A DNA stretch of 64,000 bases from Octopus vulgaris. Its lineage: Eukaryota. Below, in pieces: positions 33,874 to 38,482 of the stretch. Each line of letters starts with the position of its first letter. Within the stretch, counting starts at the first letter, position 1. A program made the position numbers. The stretch is taken from assembly GCA_951406725.2 (NCBI GenBank), contig OX597820.1, positions 73,656,001 through 73,720,000 of the forward strand, in the 5' to 3' direction.

Positions 33874-36800
33874 ACCTTACTCCTGATACAGTGGTTGCTG
33901 TTCTGCAGAGCTCATTGGTCTTGTGTCATCTCATCACCCACAACCCAGTGGTGATGAAACTGAGCATTTGTAATGACCTTGAGGATTCTTAGCCCACAAG
34001 GGGCTAAGCATAGAGAGGACAAACAAGGGCAGACAAAGGGATTAAGTTGATTACATCAACCCCAGTGTGTAACTGGTACTTAATTTATCAACCCTGAAAG
34101 GATGAAAGGCAAAGTCGACCTCGGTGAAATTTGAACTCAGGACGTAATGGCAGACGAAATACCACTAAGCATTTCACCCGGCATGCTAATGTTTCTGCCA
34201 GCTCACCGCCGTCCTTGAGGATTCTAGTATGGGTATGTGATGTTTTGGTTCAGCTGTTTTTGTTCCACTTATTTGGATCACAGATTGATTCAACACTCAA
34301 TGTTCTTCTAATTTTCTCTGTCTCTCTCTCTCTCTCCCCTCTCTTCTGTGTGTGAGATTCTTGTTGCATTTGTATCTTTTATCGTTTTCTTCTTTCACTC
34401 ATTAGACTGCGGCCATGCTGGAGCACCACCTTGAAGACTTTTTAGTCATATGAATAAACCCCTGCACTTATTTTTTTAAGCCCGGTACTTATTTTATTGG
34501 ACCCTTTTGCTGAACCGCTGGGTTGTGGAGACATAAATACATCAACAACATTTGTCAAGTGGTAGTGGTGGGGGGGACAAACAAACACAAAGACACACAC
34601 ACACGACAGGCTTCTTTCAGTTTCTGTCTTGGCACACTCCCCAAAAAATTAAGAATGCAAAAAAAAAACAAAAACAAAAAAAAAAAAGGAGTGAACAGTC
34701 AGAGTGGAAATTTGAGATAAATTAACATCTCAGTTCAGCGAATTTAGCAGTGATACCTCATGCAGTTTTATGTATTTTCTGAGCAATTTTATTTTGCTTC
34801 TATATTTATTGAGTGATTCTTCTATTACTAATCCAGCAAGTACAATATGAAGTCTATATTTTACTAATCAGGTTCTGATAAGACCAAAATATGTCAAGAG
34901 TTGTTTATTCTTTTACTTGTTTCAATCATTTGACTCGTCATGCTGGAGCACTGCCTTTAGTTGAACAAATTGACCCCAGGACTTATTCTTTGTTGGCCTA
35001 GTACTTATTCTATTGATCTCTTTTGCCGAATTGTTAAGTTACAGGGATGTAAACACACCCACGTGTTTCCTGTACTTACTGAAATAACTGAAACAATATT
35101 AGTTGTTAACTAATATCCGATGCCATAAATAACACACAGACATATCAGACGCATCCCAGTTTTGGCTGTTCATATTCAGGAAAATTGTTTTTAATATCTT
35201 AAAGCATGTAATACTTAAAAGTAATCTAGCAGTATATTACAAAACATTATGAAGGTACCATAGCTATAGCAGCAAACATTATTGTCATCATTTAACATCC
35301 ATGTTCCAGGTTGGCATGCATTGGATAGTTTGACAAGGATTCATTGAGTCAAGGACTGCATTGTACTCAAGCATCTGCTTTGGCACGGTTTCTATGACTG
35401 GATGTCCTTTTTAATGCCAACCACTTTTCAGTGTATACTACTTTTTTTTTTTTTTGGTGCCACTGTCACTATTGAGGTCACTATGTATCTCACAGGTCAA
35501 CAAATCCAGGGAGGGAGGATGTTGCTTCTGTACGCTAGACGGAAGTTAAGGGATGAGGTTGGAGTAGAGCAGGCTCTTGTAGAGGAGCTGCATGGGTACT
35601 TACATTTAGAGTGAGCATGAAAATGTAAAGCATCACGATGTGACAATATTCTACATGATTACAGTAATAAAATATGAAAGAAGGAAACAAAGGAGATTAC
35701 ATTTAACCCTTTTCTTACCAACCCGGCTGAAACCAGCTCTGGCTCTGAGTACAAATGTCTTGTTTCCATAAGTTTTGAATTAAAATCTTCCACCAAACCT
35801 TAGTCACAATTTATGTTCCTAACACTAGCTGAATGATAATTAAGTTATTTTACTAAATTCTTTGTTATATTTAAAGTAATAGAAAGAAACACGGAGTATT
35901 TCAAAATAAATACAGTAATGAAAGGGTTAATAAAAAGCAAGCTTCCATTACATTTGGACATAAACCAAAACACAGGAGATTGTCTGGATTAAAATTAGTC
36001 CATAGCAGTGAGTATCGAGAACAAAATTAGCTTATGGGAGGCCCAACTTTGCCTATGAGAACCTGGTGTAATTTTAAGAAAAGGTATGTCTTGTATTCCA
36101 TCAAATATCATATTTTCTTCACTATACAATTATTTCTAGTTATTTTTCTTTTAATGTTCCTTGCATTAAATGTATTAAAACCAACTTAAATATTGATACA
36201 GTTGCTATTTGTTCATTGTCATCTTTTACTACATGAACATTTTGTTCATTTTGGTATTTCTTCTTAATTCTTAAAACACCTTGAAATGCAGTACAATATA
36301 AACAGTTGAAGAATGTATCCGTAATCGGCAATTGTGGGCAATAGCAAAACCAAAGCCTCTAATGTTGTCACATAATCAGCTTATCTTGTGAAAGTAACCA
36401 TGGTTACTTATCGCCATTTAATTTCTTGGGTTTTAAGCCATCTTCTATAAGAAAAATTTGAAATTTTTTTTCAGTATTTGTAGATCAATTTCTTTTCCAA
36501 TTCTGGAGTGCTTAACTACATCAAACTGCTATGTATTGCTTCAAAAGTATCTTCACTCTCTTTGGCCTACCAAAATCATATGTACAGTTTAAACTGAAGA
36601 TTTGTTTCTAAATCTATTGAACTTGATGGCAATAAAATGCACCCAGCACAACGAATGTAAAGTGGCTGGTGAGAGGAGAGGAAGGATATCTAGCTAAAGT
36701 ATGCAAAAAATAAGGAAAAAAGGTGTTGGAATGGGAGTAAGCAGAGATGTGGATTCTGCAAGCTGCAGTACAGGCAACCTATCTAAAGAATAGTTATTCT

Positions 36801-38482
36801 GATTAAAACCTGATACAAGGATGAGAAGACCATTCAGTGTTGCCATACCCAGCCTCTCTAGTGCCAGTGGTACAATAAAAAGTACCCAGTCCATGATGAG
36901 GTATTAGGGGACCTGTTTGATTTATACCAGCCTGGAAAACTGAACATAATATACATGACTATTGATCCTGCATGAACATGTGGTTAGAATGTTGCTGGAA
37001 AGTAGTGCAAGACGTGTTCTTCAAACTGAGCCAACTAGCCTGGAACATGGATGTTAAATGATGACAATAATGTTTTCTGCTATAGCTATGGTACCTTCAT
37101 AATGTTTTGTAATATACTGCTGGATTACTTTTAAGTATTACATGCTTTAAGATATTAAAAACAATTTTCCTGAATATGAACAGCCAAAACTGGGATGCGT
37201 CTGATATGTCTGTGTGTTATTTATGGCATCGGATATTAGTTAACAACTAATATTGTTTCAGTTATTTCAGTAAGTACAGGAAACACGTGGGTGTGTTTAC
37301 ATCCCTGTAACTTAACAATTCGGCAAAAGAGATTAATAGAATAAGTACTAGGCCTACAAAGAATAAGTCCTAGGGTCAATTTGTTCAACTAAAGGCAGTG
37401 CTCCAGCATGACGACAGTCAAATGATTGAAACAAGTAAAAGAATAAAAGAATAAACATGTCTTGACATATTTTGGTCTTATCAGAACCTGATTAGTAAAA
37501 TATAGACTTCATATTGTACTTGCTGGATTAGTAATAGAAGAATCACTCAATAAATATAGAAGCAAAATAAAATTGCTCAGAAAATACATAAAACTGCATG
37601 AGGTATCACTGCTAACTTGGCTGAACTGAGATATTAACTTCTGTCAAATTTACACTCTGACTGTTCACTCCTTTATTGTTTTTTGTTTTTTCTGTATTCT
37701 TAATCTTTTGGTGAGTGTGTCAAGACAGAAACTGAAAGAAGCCTGTCGTGTGTGTGTGTCTTTGTGTTTGTTTGTCCCCCCCCCCCACTACCACTTGACA
37801 AATGTTGATGTATTTATGTCTCCACAACCCAGCGGTTCAGCAAAAGGGTCCAATAAAATAAGTACCGGGCTTAAAAAAATAAGTGCAGGGGTTTATTCAT
37901 ATGACTAAAAAGTAGTTTGGCAAGAGTCCAATAAAATATATCTATGTTTGTGTGTCTGTGTTTATCCCCCGCTACAGCTTGACAGCCAGTGTTGGTGTGT
38001 TTACATCGCCATAACTTAGCAGTTCAGCAAAAGTGACCAGTAAAATAAGTGCCAGGCTTAAGAAATAAGTACAGGGGTTGATTTATTTGACTAAAAATTC
38101 GAGGTGGTGCCCCACCATACCTGTAGTCTAATGACTGGAACTAATAAAAGATACACACACACACACACACAGGTGCAGGAGTAGCTGTGTGGTAAGAAGC
38201 TTGCTTTTCAACCACATGGTTCTGGGTTCAGTCCTACTGTGTGGCACCTTGGGCAGGTGTCTTGTACTATAGCCTCAGGCCAACCAAAGCCTTGTAAATG
38301 GATTTGCTCAACGGAAACTGAAAGAATCCCATTATATATATGTATATCTATATACACACACATATATATATATGTATGTAATATAATTTTTCTGAATCTT
38401 CAAATTTTTCAATATGCTAGAGCACTGGTTTTAAGTTGATATTAATCAAATTAATATTCAATTTTTCATCCTTATTATTTTA

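What the first reader, a model, noticed from the sequence alone, without database searches (positions are those of the whole stretch)
34437..37913. Recent ~875-bp inverted duplication able to form a long dsRNA stem
Seen: near-identical inverted arms containing unique DNA plus SINE parts, with no TSD. The left arm is collinear with its flanking repeats, so it is probably the original. Both junctions of the right arm fall in or next to same-family repeats (inner: RTE-tail sequence; outer: SINE-B 3' part). Inference: repeat-guided template switching or conversion. If transcribed, it is a strong ADAR hyper-editing, endo-siRNA or back-splicing substrate; extensive A-to-I editing is established for coleoid cephalopods.
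Basis: partly seen in the sequence, partly recalled or inferred. Interest (0 to 1): 0.7.

Follow-up and report, generated by a model that had tools for sequence, protein, structure and literature searches.

The report
Young inverted duplication in octopus-like DNA
An 875-base stretch of repeat-rich, octopus-like DNA has been copied in reverse 1.7 kb away, which is a real but fairly ordinary rearrangement that could form a long RNA hairpin only if the region is transcribed, and that could not be tested here.

Summary
Arms 34437-35310 and 37039-37913 (874 and 875 nt, 1728-nt spacer) differ by 20 mismatches and 7 indels, 97.7% identity at aligned bases. It is by far the strongest inverted repeat in the window.

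Each arm has the same mosaic: a SINE 3' part, DNA single-copy in this window, a second SINE part, more single-copy DNA, then the first ~42 nt of a third repeat. It is therefore one DNA segment copied once. It is not a transposon, a retrocopy or two chance insertions.

The left arm is the source, because its SINE continues unbroken across 34437. The inner junction is a chimeric repeat: both arms end in register inside mirrored copies of one family. The outer junction is non-homologous and has a 29-nt SINE-like filler. This pattern fits template switching, or one-ended invasion plus end joining, primed by inverted repeats (PMC11293582).

If one RNA spanned both arms, an ~845-bp stem is predicted. 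Transcription, editing and circular RNAs could not be tested. No coding signal lies in or near the spacer. Endo-siRNAs are disfavoured in molluscs (PMC12479628). Verdict: real, modest interest.

The parts
34437..35310 (.). Left arm (874 nt), the source copy of the duplication
   Evidence: Its SINE part continues unbroken into 34375-34436. Its terminal repeat continues unbroken to 35490.
37039..37913 (.). Right arm (875 nt), the inverted derived copy
   Evidence: Family homology is lost at 37913/37914. The repeat at 37039/37038 is chimeric.
35311..37038 (.). 1728-nt spacer, which would be the loop of the predicted hairpin
   Evidence: No other copy in the window at E<=1e-5. No Pfam hit in any ORF of 40 aa or more. 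No Rfam hit.
34375..34625 (-). SINE1, a 5'-truncated SINE 3' part. The duplication breakpoint 34437 lies about 62 nt inside it.
   Evidence: The minus orientation is inferred from the shared end at 34375 versus variable far ends among copies, and from the head-plus-3'-part order of the full copy at 38161-38797 (families D7 and D4).
34902..35062 (-). SINE2, a second 5'-truncated copy of the same family, carried inside both arms (mirror copy at 37287-37455)
   Evidence: 80-88% identity to six other window copies.
34632..34743 (.). Mismatch cluster in an A-rich patch: 13 of the 20 arm mismatches plus 2 of the 7 indels
   Evidence: 0 of 100000 permutations reach 13 mismatches in 112 nt. The patch is 54% A, with an A-run at 34659-34687.
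35269..35490 (+). Left copy of the interspersed repeat 'fam'. Its first ~42 nt form the end of the left arm.
   Evidence: nhmmer with an HMM built from 9 other window copies: model positions 15-229, E = 8.2e-30, contiguous across 35310/35311.
37022..37082 (-). Right, mirrored 'fam' copy. Positions 37082-37039 are arm-identical and 37038-37022 continue the family with different sequence, making this the chimeric junction.
   Evidence: nhmmer: model positions 13-78, E = 2.1e-5. Sensitive blastn matches three other family copies through query position 60.
36836..36893 (-). Collinear, decayed further piece of the right 'fam' copy
   Evidence: nhmmer: model positions 177-238, E = 0.0055. This is weak evidence.
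37914..37942 (.). 29-nt filler at the outer junction. It is SINE-like but out of register.
   Evidence: 16 of 17 nt match SINE1 at 34490-34506. Of 300 shuffles, 0 reach the observed score for 2 of 5 family targets, and 7, 11 and 23 reach it for the other three.
37943..38171 (+). SINE', a separate 5'-truncated copy of the same family with an (AC)9.5 tail, just outside the right arm

Best explanation
This is a genuine, evolutionarily young, DNA-level inverted duplication. An 875-nt segment lying next to an interspersed repeat ('fam', plus strand) was copied in reverse onto a site 1.7 kb downstream that already carried an older, mirrored copy of the same repeat family.

Inferred mechanism: a 3' DNA end inside the right-hand repeat, from a stalled fork or a resected break, paired with the left-hand repeat over its conserved first ~42 nt or less. 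It then copied leftwards through single-copy DNA and two old SINE fragments for 875 nt. It let go inside a SINE 3' part and was rejoined to the right-hand flank without homology, leaving a 29-nt filler.

What is shown: the anatomy, the direction (left is the source) and the chimeric inner junction. What is inferred: the order of events and the enzymes involved.

Consequences: if one transcript spans both arms, an ~845-bp near-perfect stem is predicted on either strand. In an octopod the likeliest fate of such a stem is ADAR hyper-editing. At the DNA level the arms could also mediate inversion of the spacer. No function is indicated. The locus is most likely a neutral by-product of a repeat-dense genome.
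For: - One copying event: both arms carry the same mosaic with the same SINE truncation points and the same DNA that is single-copy in this window.
- Left arm is the source: SINE1 follows the family alignment unbroken across 34437, while the right copy loses homology there. The left 'fam' copy is one contiguous match across 35310/35311 (E = 8e-30).
- Chimeric inner junction: the right side matches the family HMM from 37082 to 37022, which is 17 nt past the junction. There its bases differ from the left arm and lie nearer the family consensus. A collinear piece follows at 36893-36836.
- Independent repeat copies: beyond the junction the two sides are not significantly alike (score 17.5 against shuffles of 12.3 +/- 1.6, maximum 19, n = 200). 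They also score very differently against the HMM, so they are not one duplicated copy.
- Non-homologous outer junction: there is no in-register homology, only out-of-register SINE material.
- Not a transposon or retrocopy: no TSD beyond 2 nt and no tail at either end.
- Real divergence on both arms: family copies polarise 4 SINE-part mismatches, giving 3 derived in the right arm and 1 in the left.
- Youth: JC distance is 0.0235 overall and 0.0093 outside the mismatch cluster, whereas the SINE copies are only 74-88% alike. The O. vulgaris calibration in PMC13282606 equates JC 0.065 with 18 My (passage read). On that calibration the duplication is roughly 1-3 My old, which is my own rough inference.
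- Known precedent: inverted-repeat-primed break-induced replication gives a chimeric repeat at junction 1. At junction 2 it gives microhomology, a blunt end or a short or templated insertion. Diverged inverted Alu elements can mediate it (PMC11293582, passages read).
- Predicted stem: MFE is -1842 kcal/mol on the plus strand and -1812 on the minus strand. 845 of 874 (plus strand) or 875 (minus strand) arm bases pair with the other arm. The longest perfect run is 211 bp.
- Taxon: the best relatives of a nearby decayed transposase frame are Octopus vulgaris and O. bimaculoides proteins; 4 of the 6 hits are named Octopus.
Against: - No reads, second assembly or sister-species locus were available, so the duplication is unverified outside this assembly and the empty site is unknown.
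- The right 'fam' copy beyond the junction is weakly supported. E = 2e-5 includes 43 arm-derived nt, and the further piece has E = 0.0055.
- The homology available for the first switch is short, about 42 nt at most.
- Mismatches are very unevenly spread (13 of 20 in 112 nt). A single copying event followed by uniform drift does not predict this.
- Copy number of the single-copy arm segments in the whole genome is unknown.
- Nothing shows that the locus is transcribed. No Pfam domain was found in ORFs of 40 aa or more across 31-41.5 kb (0 of 121; none of the 72-aa-or-longer ORFs there). There was no Rfam hit.
Confidence: 0.6

Rival explanations
1. Chimeric retrocopy. During target-primed reverse transcription of the neighbouring SINE' (37943-38153), the reverse transcriptase jumped from the SINE RNA onto an antisense transcript of the left locus and copied 875 nt. 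The cDNA end was then joined at the mirrored 'fam' repeat by short homology.
For: The right arm sits directly 5' of a 5'-truncated, tailed SINE copy in the same orientation as its own SINE part. A short filler lies at the joint. The 5' junction lies in homology. As I recall, without having read it here, LINE-driven chimeric retrocopies have this 5'-part/3'-part layout.
Against: No direct repeat of 7 nt or more links the DNA left of 37039 with the DNA after the SINE' tail or after the next SINE. The source lying only 1.7 kb away in cis favours a local DNA event. The model needs germline antisense transcription of the left locus, for which there is no evidence.
Confidence: 0.1
2. Older inverted duplication (a small palindrome) whose arms are kept similar by arm-to-arm gene conversion. 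On this reading the sharp ends are conversion-tract ends, and the 34632-34743 patch is a stretch that escaped conversion.
For: Divergence is very patchy: 12.5% (13 of 104 aligned bases) in the cluster against 0.9% elsewhere, with 0 of 100000 permutations reaching this. In-register family homology continues past the inner junction.
Against: There is no in-register homology past the outer junction, where the last 62 nt of SINE1 have no mirror. The left and right 'fam' copies beyond the junction differ greatly in how well they match the family HMM (97.6 bits against 17.2 and 9.3 bits). That is unexpected for equally old duplicates. The cluster sits in an A-rich, slippage-prone patch.
Confidence: 0.1
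3. Assembly artefact: a chimeric or fold-back read, or mis-joined haplotypes, created a second, inverted copy that is absent from the real chromosome.
For: It cannot be excluded without reads. Several indels are of the slippage or homopolymer kind.
Against: The arms differ at 20 substitutions, with derived states on both arms. A 1728-nt spacer that is single-copy in this window separates them, so this is not a spacer-less fold-back. The inner junction falls in register inside a repeat, which an artefact does not predict. There are no N or gaps.
Confidence: 0.08
4. Mobile-element origin: either the terminal inverted repeats of one long-TIR or foldback DNA transposon (34437-37913), or two separate insertions of a multi-copy composite element.
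For: The long, similar inverted arms. The genome-wide copy number of the arm is unknown.
Against: The left end lies inside a contiguous older SINE copy. Only a 2-nt shared flank is present. No transposase, RT or any Pfam domain occurs between the arms. There is no third copy in the 64 kb.
Confidence: 0.05

Closest known systems
Inverted-repeat-primed template switching / break-induced replication (the junction logic of DUP-TRP/INV-DUP and Alu-Alu-mediated rearrangements; PMC11293582, passages read)
   Same: One junction is a chimeric repeat formed between two inverted same-family repeats. Synthesis then runs in the reverse direction. The second junction has little or no homology and a short insertion. 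Diverged SINE-class repeats suffice as primers.
   Different: The scale is about 1 kb rather than kb-Mb. There is no triplication, because the second switch lands near the first and gives a simple inverted duplication. The priming homology is only about 42 nt at most, between old copies. The event is fixed in an assembly, not observed de novo.
Neighbouring inverted SINE pairs as ADAR hyper-editing substrates (PMC5625713, passages read)
   Same: Two inverted, similar sequences a few kb apart would pair within one transcript. Octopus is reported with the strongest hyper-editing signal and an exceptionally high fraction of loci (4.4e-3) in near-perfect inverted pairs.
   Different: The arms here are a duplicated mosaic of single-copy DNA plus SINE parts. 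They are far longer (875 nt) and more alike (97.7%) than independent SINE pairs in this window (293 nt and 89% at most). Only the inner part of each arm has its partner within that paper's 2-kb flank. Editing was not tested.
Hairpin-RNA (hpRNA) endo-siRNA loci of Drosophila and inverted-duplication proto-miRNA loci of plants (recalled, not read here)
   Same: An inverted duplication with a spacer could be transcribed into a long hairpin.
   Different: No transcript or small RNAs are known for this locus. The arms copy no recognisable gene. A survey reports no dedicated siRNA pathway in molluscs (PMC12479628, passages read).
Palindromes homogenised by arm-to-arm gene conversion (for example sex-chromosome palindromes; recalled)
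   Same: Highly similar inverted arms around a unique spacer, with patchy divergence.
   Different: This structure is about a thousand times smaller. The outer flank shows no residual mirror homology.
Foldback / long-TIR DNA transposons
   Same: Long inverted arms flank a short middle.
   Different: No TSD, no transposase and no further copies in the window. One end lies inside an older SINE.

Membership tests
Segmental inverted duplication (DNA-level copy) | Both copies share one collinear mosaic of unrelated pieces, including non-repetitive DNA and the same truncation points of nested repeats | tested here: met
   'Non-repetitive' was established within the 64-kb window only.
Segmental inverted duplication (DNA-level copy) | Present in the real chromosome (spanning reads or a second assembly) | not testable with these tools
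   No reads or eukaryotic genome collection were available.
Inverted-repeat-primed template switch / BIR product | Junction 1 is a chimeric repeat between two inverted same-family repeats, in register | tested here: met
   Left copy: model positions 15-229, E = 8e-30. Right copy: model positions 13-78, E = 2e-5, running 17 nt past the junction with its own sequence. A collinear piece has E = 0.0055.
Inverted-repeat-primed template switch / BIR product | Junction 2 has microhomology, a blunt end or a short insertion, not long homology | tested here: met
   no in-register homology and a 29-nt filler. The exact microhomology cannot be read without the empty site.
Inverted-repeat-primed template switch / BIR product | The pre-event allele carries the right-hand repeat without the arm | not testable with these tools
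   Needs an orthologous or polymorphic empty site.
Long-TIR / foldback DNA transposon | Target-site duplication at the outer ends, with ends that are insertion boundaries | tested here: not met
   Only a 2-nt AG is shared. The left end lies inside a contiguous SINE copy.
Long-TIR / foldback DNA transposon | Transposase remnant, or further copies | tested here: not met
   No Pfam hits between the arms. No third copy in the window. The rest of the genome was not searched.
Retrocopy (RNA-mediated duplicate) | 3' tail and TSD flanking the copy | tested here: not met
   no A-rich or simple-repeat tail at either arm end, and no direct repeat of 7 nt or more. A chimeric form fused to SINE' is not excluded.
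Pair of independently inserted inverted SINEs | Similarity confined to the SINE and at family-level identity | tested here: not met
   Similarity covers about 550 nt of DNA that is single-copy in this window, at 97.7% identity. SINE copies are 74-88% alike.
ADAR hyper-editing substrate | Long near-perfect intramolecular duplex | tested here: met
   845 of 874 (plus strand) or 875 (minus strand) arm bases paired; a 211-bp perfect run. This is a prediction only.
ADAR hyper-editing substrate | Both arms on one transcript, with clustered A-to-G changes in RNA | not testable with these tools
   No RNA data. The genomic mismatches show no A-to-G bias: 3 A/G against 3 G/A, and 9 transitions against 11 transversions.
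hpRNA / endo-siRNA locus | Dicer-type 20-24-nt duplex reads from the arms | not testable with these tools
   No small-RNA data. The literature disfavours the pathway in molluscs (PMC12479628).
Back-splicing (circRNA) unit flanked by inverted repeats | Exon(s) with splice sites between the arms | tested here: inconclusive
   No Pfam signal in any spacer ORF of 40 aa or more. Non-coding or short exons cannot be excluded.
   No repeat library was available. No RT or endonuclease domain was found in the window. It is a 362-position interspersed family with at least 12 significant copies in the window.

The most novel reading that the evidence does not exclude
The locus is a newly born hairpin-RNA gene. 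It would be transcribed through both arms in neural tissue, and its ~845-bp stem would be one of the strongest ADAR substrates in the genome, acting as an editing sink or dsRNA buffer. Bolder still, it could be processed into small RNAs, which would be a hairpin-derived endo-siRNA source in a phylum reported to lack that pathway.
Probability: 0.04. Interest if true: 0.65.

Novelty: new member of a known kind. Interest (0 to 1): 0.25.

Why it matters
On its own it matters little. It is one more small structural variant in a genome reported as about two-thirds repeats in O. vulgaris (PMC13282606).

It is a clean, fully readable example of how dense, old SINE-class repeats seed new inverted duplications: one junction in homologous repeats and one without homology. 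It also shows how such events create duplexes far longer and more perfect than ordinary inverted SINE pairs. Octopus hyper-editing is reported to track the supply of such duplexes (PMC5625713). A genome-wide count of duplications of this kind, set against plain SINE pairs, would show which source feeds the editing machinery. The arms could also drive flip-flop inversion of the spacer.

Tried and rejected
- Transposon reading: rejected on flanks, content and copy number.
- Simple retrocopy: rejected, no tail and no TSD.
- Copy of an edited RNA: rejected, the arm mismatches show no A-to-G bias.
- Homology-guided outer junction: rejected, because the neighbouring SINE material is out of register.
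- Pairwise homology past the inner junction: not significant. It became visible only through a family HMM.
- Rfam on the whole window and ARAGORN on 30-42 kb: no hits, so the tRNA-like nature of the SINE head rests on recall only.
- Search for exons or gene context by Pfam: of 139 ORFs of 72 aa or more, chosen from the 156 found at 70 aa or more, 4 had a hit at E<=0.01 and only one reached its curated cutoff. That one is the decayed transposase frame at 44079-44684. The 17 ORFs not sent were the five that start in the 16.5-17.6 kb array and those of 70-71 aa. None of 121 ORFs of 40-71 aa in 31-41.5 kb had a hit. It therefore remains unknown whether the locus is intronic or intergenic.
- The promoter/terminator scan was not used, because it models bacterial signals.
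- The genome-contig collection was not used, because it holds prokaryotes only.
- A quasi-palindrome explanation for two clustered mismatches (34716 and 34718) was noted but not tested.
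Full report
**1.

The repeat finder on 33000-39500 returns the pair as four ungapped blocks: 376 nt at 99%, 262 nt at 92%, 111 nt at 100% and 114 nt at 90%. blastn joins them into one alignment, 34437-35310 against 37913-37039, at 95.25% over 885 columns with E = 0.

A global alignment gives 874 against 875 nt, with 20 mismatches and 23 gap columns in 7 indel events. That is 843 of 863 aligned bases identical. The spacer is 1728 nt and the window has no N.

In a census of the whole 64 kb, this pair leads 51 inverted pairs of 150 nt or more. 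The next best is 293 nt at 89%, which is ordinary SINE-to-SINE similarity. Chance is not an issue.

**2. What the arms are made of**

A self-comparison of 33.5-39 kb against the window (328 hits at E<=1e-5; list at E<=1e-8) divides each arm into five pieces:
- A SINE 3' part (34437 to about 34603, 4-9 other copies in the window).
- About 300 nt found only in the other arm.
- A second copy of the same SINE family (34902-35062, 80-88% identical to six other copies).
- About 200 nt found only in the other arm.
- The first ~42 nt of a third interspersed repeat, called 'fam' here (see section 4).

Two different truncated SINE insertions and about 550 nt of single-copy DNA appear in the same order, with the same truncation points, in both arms. 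The arms therefore descend from one segment that was copied. They are not independent insertions. 'Single-copy' was established for this window only.

**3. Direction of the copy**

Ten SINE 3' parts were aligned. The left copy follows the family from its shared end at about 34375 straight across 34437. The right copy loses all homology at the corresponding point, 37913/37914.

All copies share the end near 34375 but stop at different far ends. By the usual 5'-truncation rule, the shared end is the SINE 3' end (inference).

**4. Inner junction**

A sensitive blastn showed that 35270-35500 belongs to a repeat family with at least nine other window copies at 64-70% identity. I built an HMM of 362 positions from those nine copies, leaving out both arms, and searched the window with it.
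- The left copy is one contiguous match: 35269-35490, model positions 15-229, E = 8.2e-30. It runs straight across the arm end at 35310/35311.
- The right side matches in mirror orientation from 37082 to 37022: model positions 13-78, E = 2.1e-5. This is 17 nt past the junction.
- In those 17 nt the right side carries its own sequence, which lies closer to the family consensus than the left arm's sequence at the first diverging positions. It also has a 6-nt gap.
- A collinear fragment follows at 36893-36836: model positions 177-238, E = 0.0055.

Compared directly, the two sides beyond the junction are not significantly alike (score 17.5; shuffles 12.3 +/- 1.6, maximum 19, n = 200). They also match the HMM very unequally.

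The right arm therefore ends in a chimeric repeat. Its first ~42 nt come from the left copy, and the rest comes from a separate, older, mirrored copy of the same family. This is the signature of a switch or crossover between inverted same-family repeats.

**5. Outer junction**

No homology continues in register here. Outside the right arm lie three elements in turn:
- A 29-nt stretch (37914-37942).
- A separate 5'-truncated SINE copy, SINE' (37943-38153), with an (AC)9.5 tail (38153-38171).
- A full-length SINE (38161-38797).

All three are in the same orientation as the arm's own SINE part. The 3' end of SINE1 does align with the 3' end of SINE', but about 240 nt out of place.

The 29-nt filler resembles an internal SINE segment. 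It matches 16 of 17 nt at SINE1 positions 34490-34506. Of 300 shuffles, none reaches the observed score for 2 of 5 family targets, and 7, 11 and 23 reach it for the other three. This match is also out of register.

The flanks share only a 2-nt AG, both for the whole structure and for the right arm alone. No direct repeat of 7 nt or more links the DNA left of 37039 with the DNA after the SINE' tail or after the next SINE. This junction looks like end joining or a microhomology-mediated switch. Its exact form needs the empty site.

**6. Mechanism**

One homologous junction in inverted repeats, synthesis in the reverse direction, and a second junction with little or no homology and a short insertion. 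This is the pattern described for inverted-repeat-primed break-induced replication or template switching in human rearrangements. Those include cases mediated by diverged inverted Alu elements (PMC11293582, passages on the model and on junction 2 read).

I therefore read the locus as a miniature of that process, or equally as one-ended strand invasion followed by end joining. The anatomy and the direction are shown. The order of events and the enzymes involved are inferred.

**7. Age and divergence pattern**

The JC distance between the arms is 0.0235, whereas the SINE copies inside them are only 74-88% identical to their relatives. The duplication is thus much younger than the repeats it carries.

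The O. vulgaris repeat paper equates JC 0.065, 0.09 and 0.2 from consensus with 18, 25 and 56 My (PMC13282606, passage read). On that calibration the arms would be about 3 My apart, or about 1 My if the mismatch cluster is set aside. This is a rough inference, and the species of the window is not known.

Family copies polarise four SINE-part mismatches: three are derived in the right arm and one in the left. Both arms have therefore drifted since the event.

Divergence is strikingly uneven. 13 of the 20 mismatches and 2 of the 7 indels lie in 34632-34743, a patch that is 54% A. None of 100000 permutations reaches this clustering. Slippage-prone sequence, error-prone copying, a conversion patch from an unseen third copy, or escape from arm-to-arm conversion are all possible explanations. 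I could not separate them.

The mismatches show no A-to-G bias: 3 A/G against 3 G/A, and 9 transitions against 11 transversions. The right arm is therefore not a copy of an edited RNA.

**8. Rival readings**

- A long-TIR or foldback transposon fails. One end lies inside an older SINE, there is no TSD, no Pfam domain occurs between the arms and there is no third copy in the window.
- A plain retrocopy fails, having no tail and no TSD.
- A chimeric retrocopy remains possible but less likely. It would arise from a reverse-transcriptase jump from the SINE' RNA onto an antisense transcript of the left locus. It would explain why the arm abuts a tailed SINE, but it has no TSD support and needs transcription that is not shown.
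- An older palindrome kept alike by gene conversion would explain the patchiness. It does not explain the missing mirror of the last 62 nt of SINE1, or the unequal decay of the two 'fam' copies.
- An assembly artefact cannot be excluded without reads. It fits poorly with 20 substitutions derived on both arms, a 1.7-kb spacer that is single-copy in this window, and a junction in register inside a repeat.

**9. RNA-level claims**

Folding 34437-37913 as one RNA gives -1842 kcal/mol on the plus strand and -1812 on the minus strand. 845 of 874 (plus strand) or 875 (minus strand) arm bases pair with the other arm. The longest perfect run is 211 bp. The structural premise is sound.

Whether the locus is transcribed could not be tested.
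- Of 139 open frames of 72 aa or more across the window, only one reaches a Pfam cutoff. It is a decayed transposase-like frame at 44079-44684.
- None of 121 frames of 40-71 aa in 31-41.5 kb gives a hit.
- Rfam finds nothing in the window.

There is thus no sign of an exon in the spacer, and no way to tell an intron from intergenic DNA.

From the literature:
- Octopus shows the strongest hyper-editing signal among the animals compared. Most hyper-editing lies in long, near-perfect duplexes of neighbouring inverted repeats. 4.4e-3 of random 50-bp octopus loci have a >95% inverted partner within 2 kb (PMC5625713, passages and the methods passage read).
- A survey of mollusc small RNAs, whose methods include an O. 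bimaculoides animal, reports no dedicated siRNA pathway. It suggests editing as the fate of long dsRNA (PMC12479628, passages read).

ADAR editing is therefore the plausible fate if the locus is transcribed. Endo-siRNA production is unlikely, and back-splicing is unsupported.

**10. Taxon**

The decayed transposase frame finds six relatives. Four of them are named Octopus vulgaris or O. bimaculoides proteins, at 61-76% identity.

**11. Verdict**

The outer junction is the exception, because it is not homology-guided. The functional suggestions remain untested conditionals, and one of them is disfavoured.

The locus is a new instance of a known kind of rearrangement in a genome where such structures are reported to be unusually common. 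Interest is modest.

Unchecked for lack of data: reads, orthologous loci, genome-wide copy number, RNA and small-RNA evidence, and the PDF supplement of PMC5625713.

Noticed in passing
window 16662-17317: A 656-bp ATA-type simple-repeat array (TRF score 1060, 91% matches). It is responsible for several long spurious open frames there.
   Followed up: partly
window 44079-45067 (+): Two overlapping open frames of 202 and 151 aa. The first hits Pfam zf-C2H2_12 (Spin-doc zinc finger) exactly at its cutoff (E = 2.8e-6). Its best relatives are Octopus vulgaris and O. bimaculoides hypothetical proteins at 61-76% identity, some carrying DUF4371. It is probably a decayed hAT-like transposase.
   Followed up: partly
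window 33465-33547 and 33850-33932: A second, small inverted pair just left of the finding: 83-nt arms, 77% complementary, 302 nt apart. Each arm ends in a CT/GA simple repeat. It looks like a MITE or foldback element.
   Followed up: no
window 37725-38797: Three SINE pieces of one family lie head-to-tail in the same orientation: the right-arm copy, SINE' with its (AC)9.5 tail, and a full-length copy. This suggests repeated insertion at SINE tails.
   Followed up: partly
window 34713-34732: Inside the mismatch cluster the left arm has a perfect 6-nt mini-hairpin (34713-34718 pairing with 34727-34732). The right arm differs there at two positions (34716 and 34718). This could be a quasi-palindrome-templated double change.
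   Followed up: no
window 50.9-53.2 kb and 56.0-60.5 kb: The 362-position 'fam' repeat that hosts the inner junction is dense here. The window holds at least 12 copies or fragments significant at E<1e-10, including tandem-like partial repeats at 50948-51437.
   Followed up: no
window 34375-34436 and 38095-38153: SINE1 and the neighbouring SINE' share a short insertion (about 7-10 nt) near their 3' ends that the eight other aligned copies lack. They therefore belong to one subfamily.
   Followed up: no
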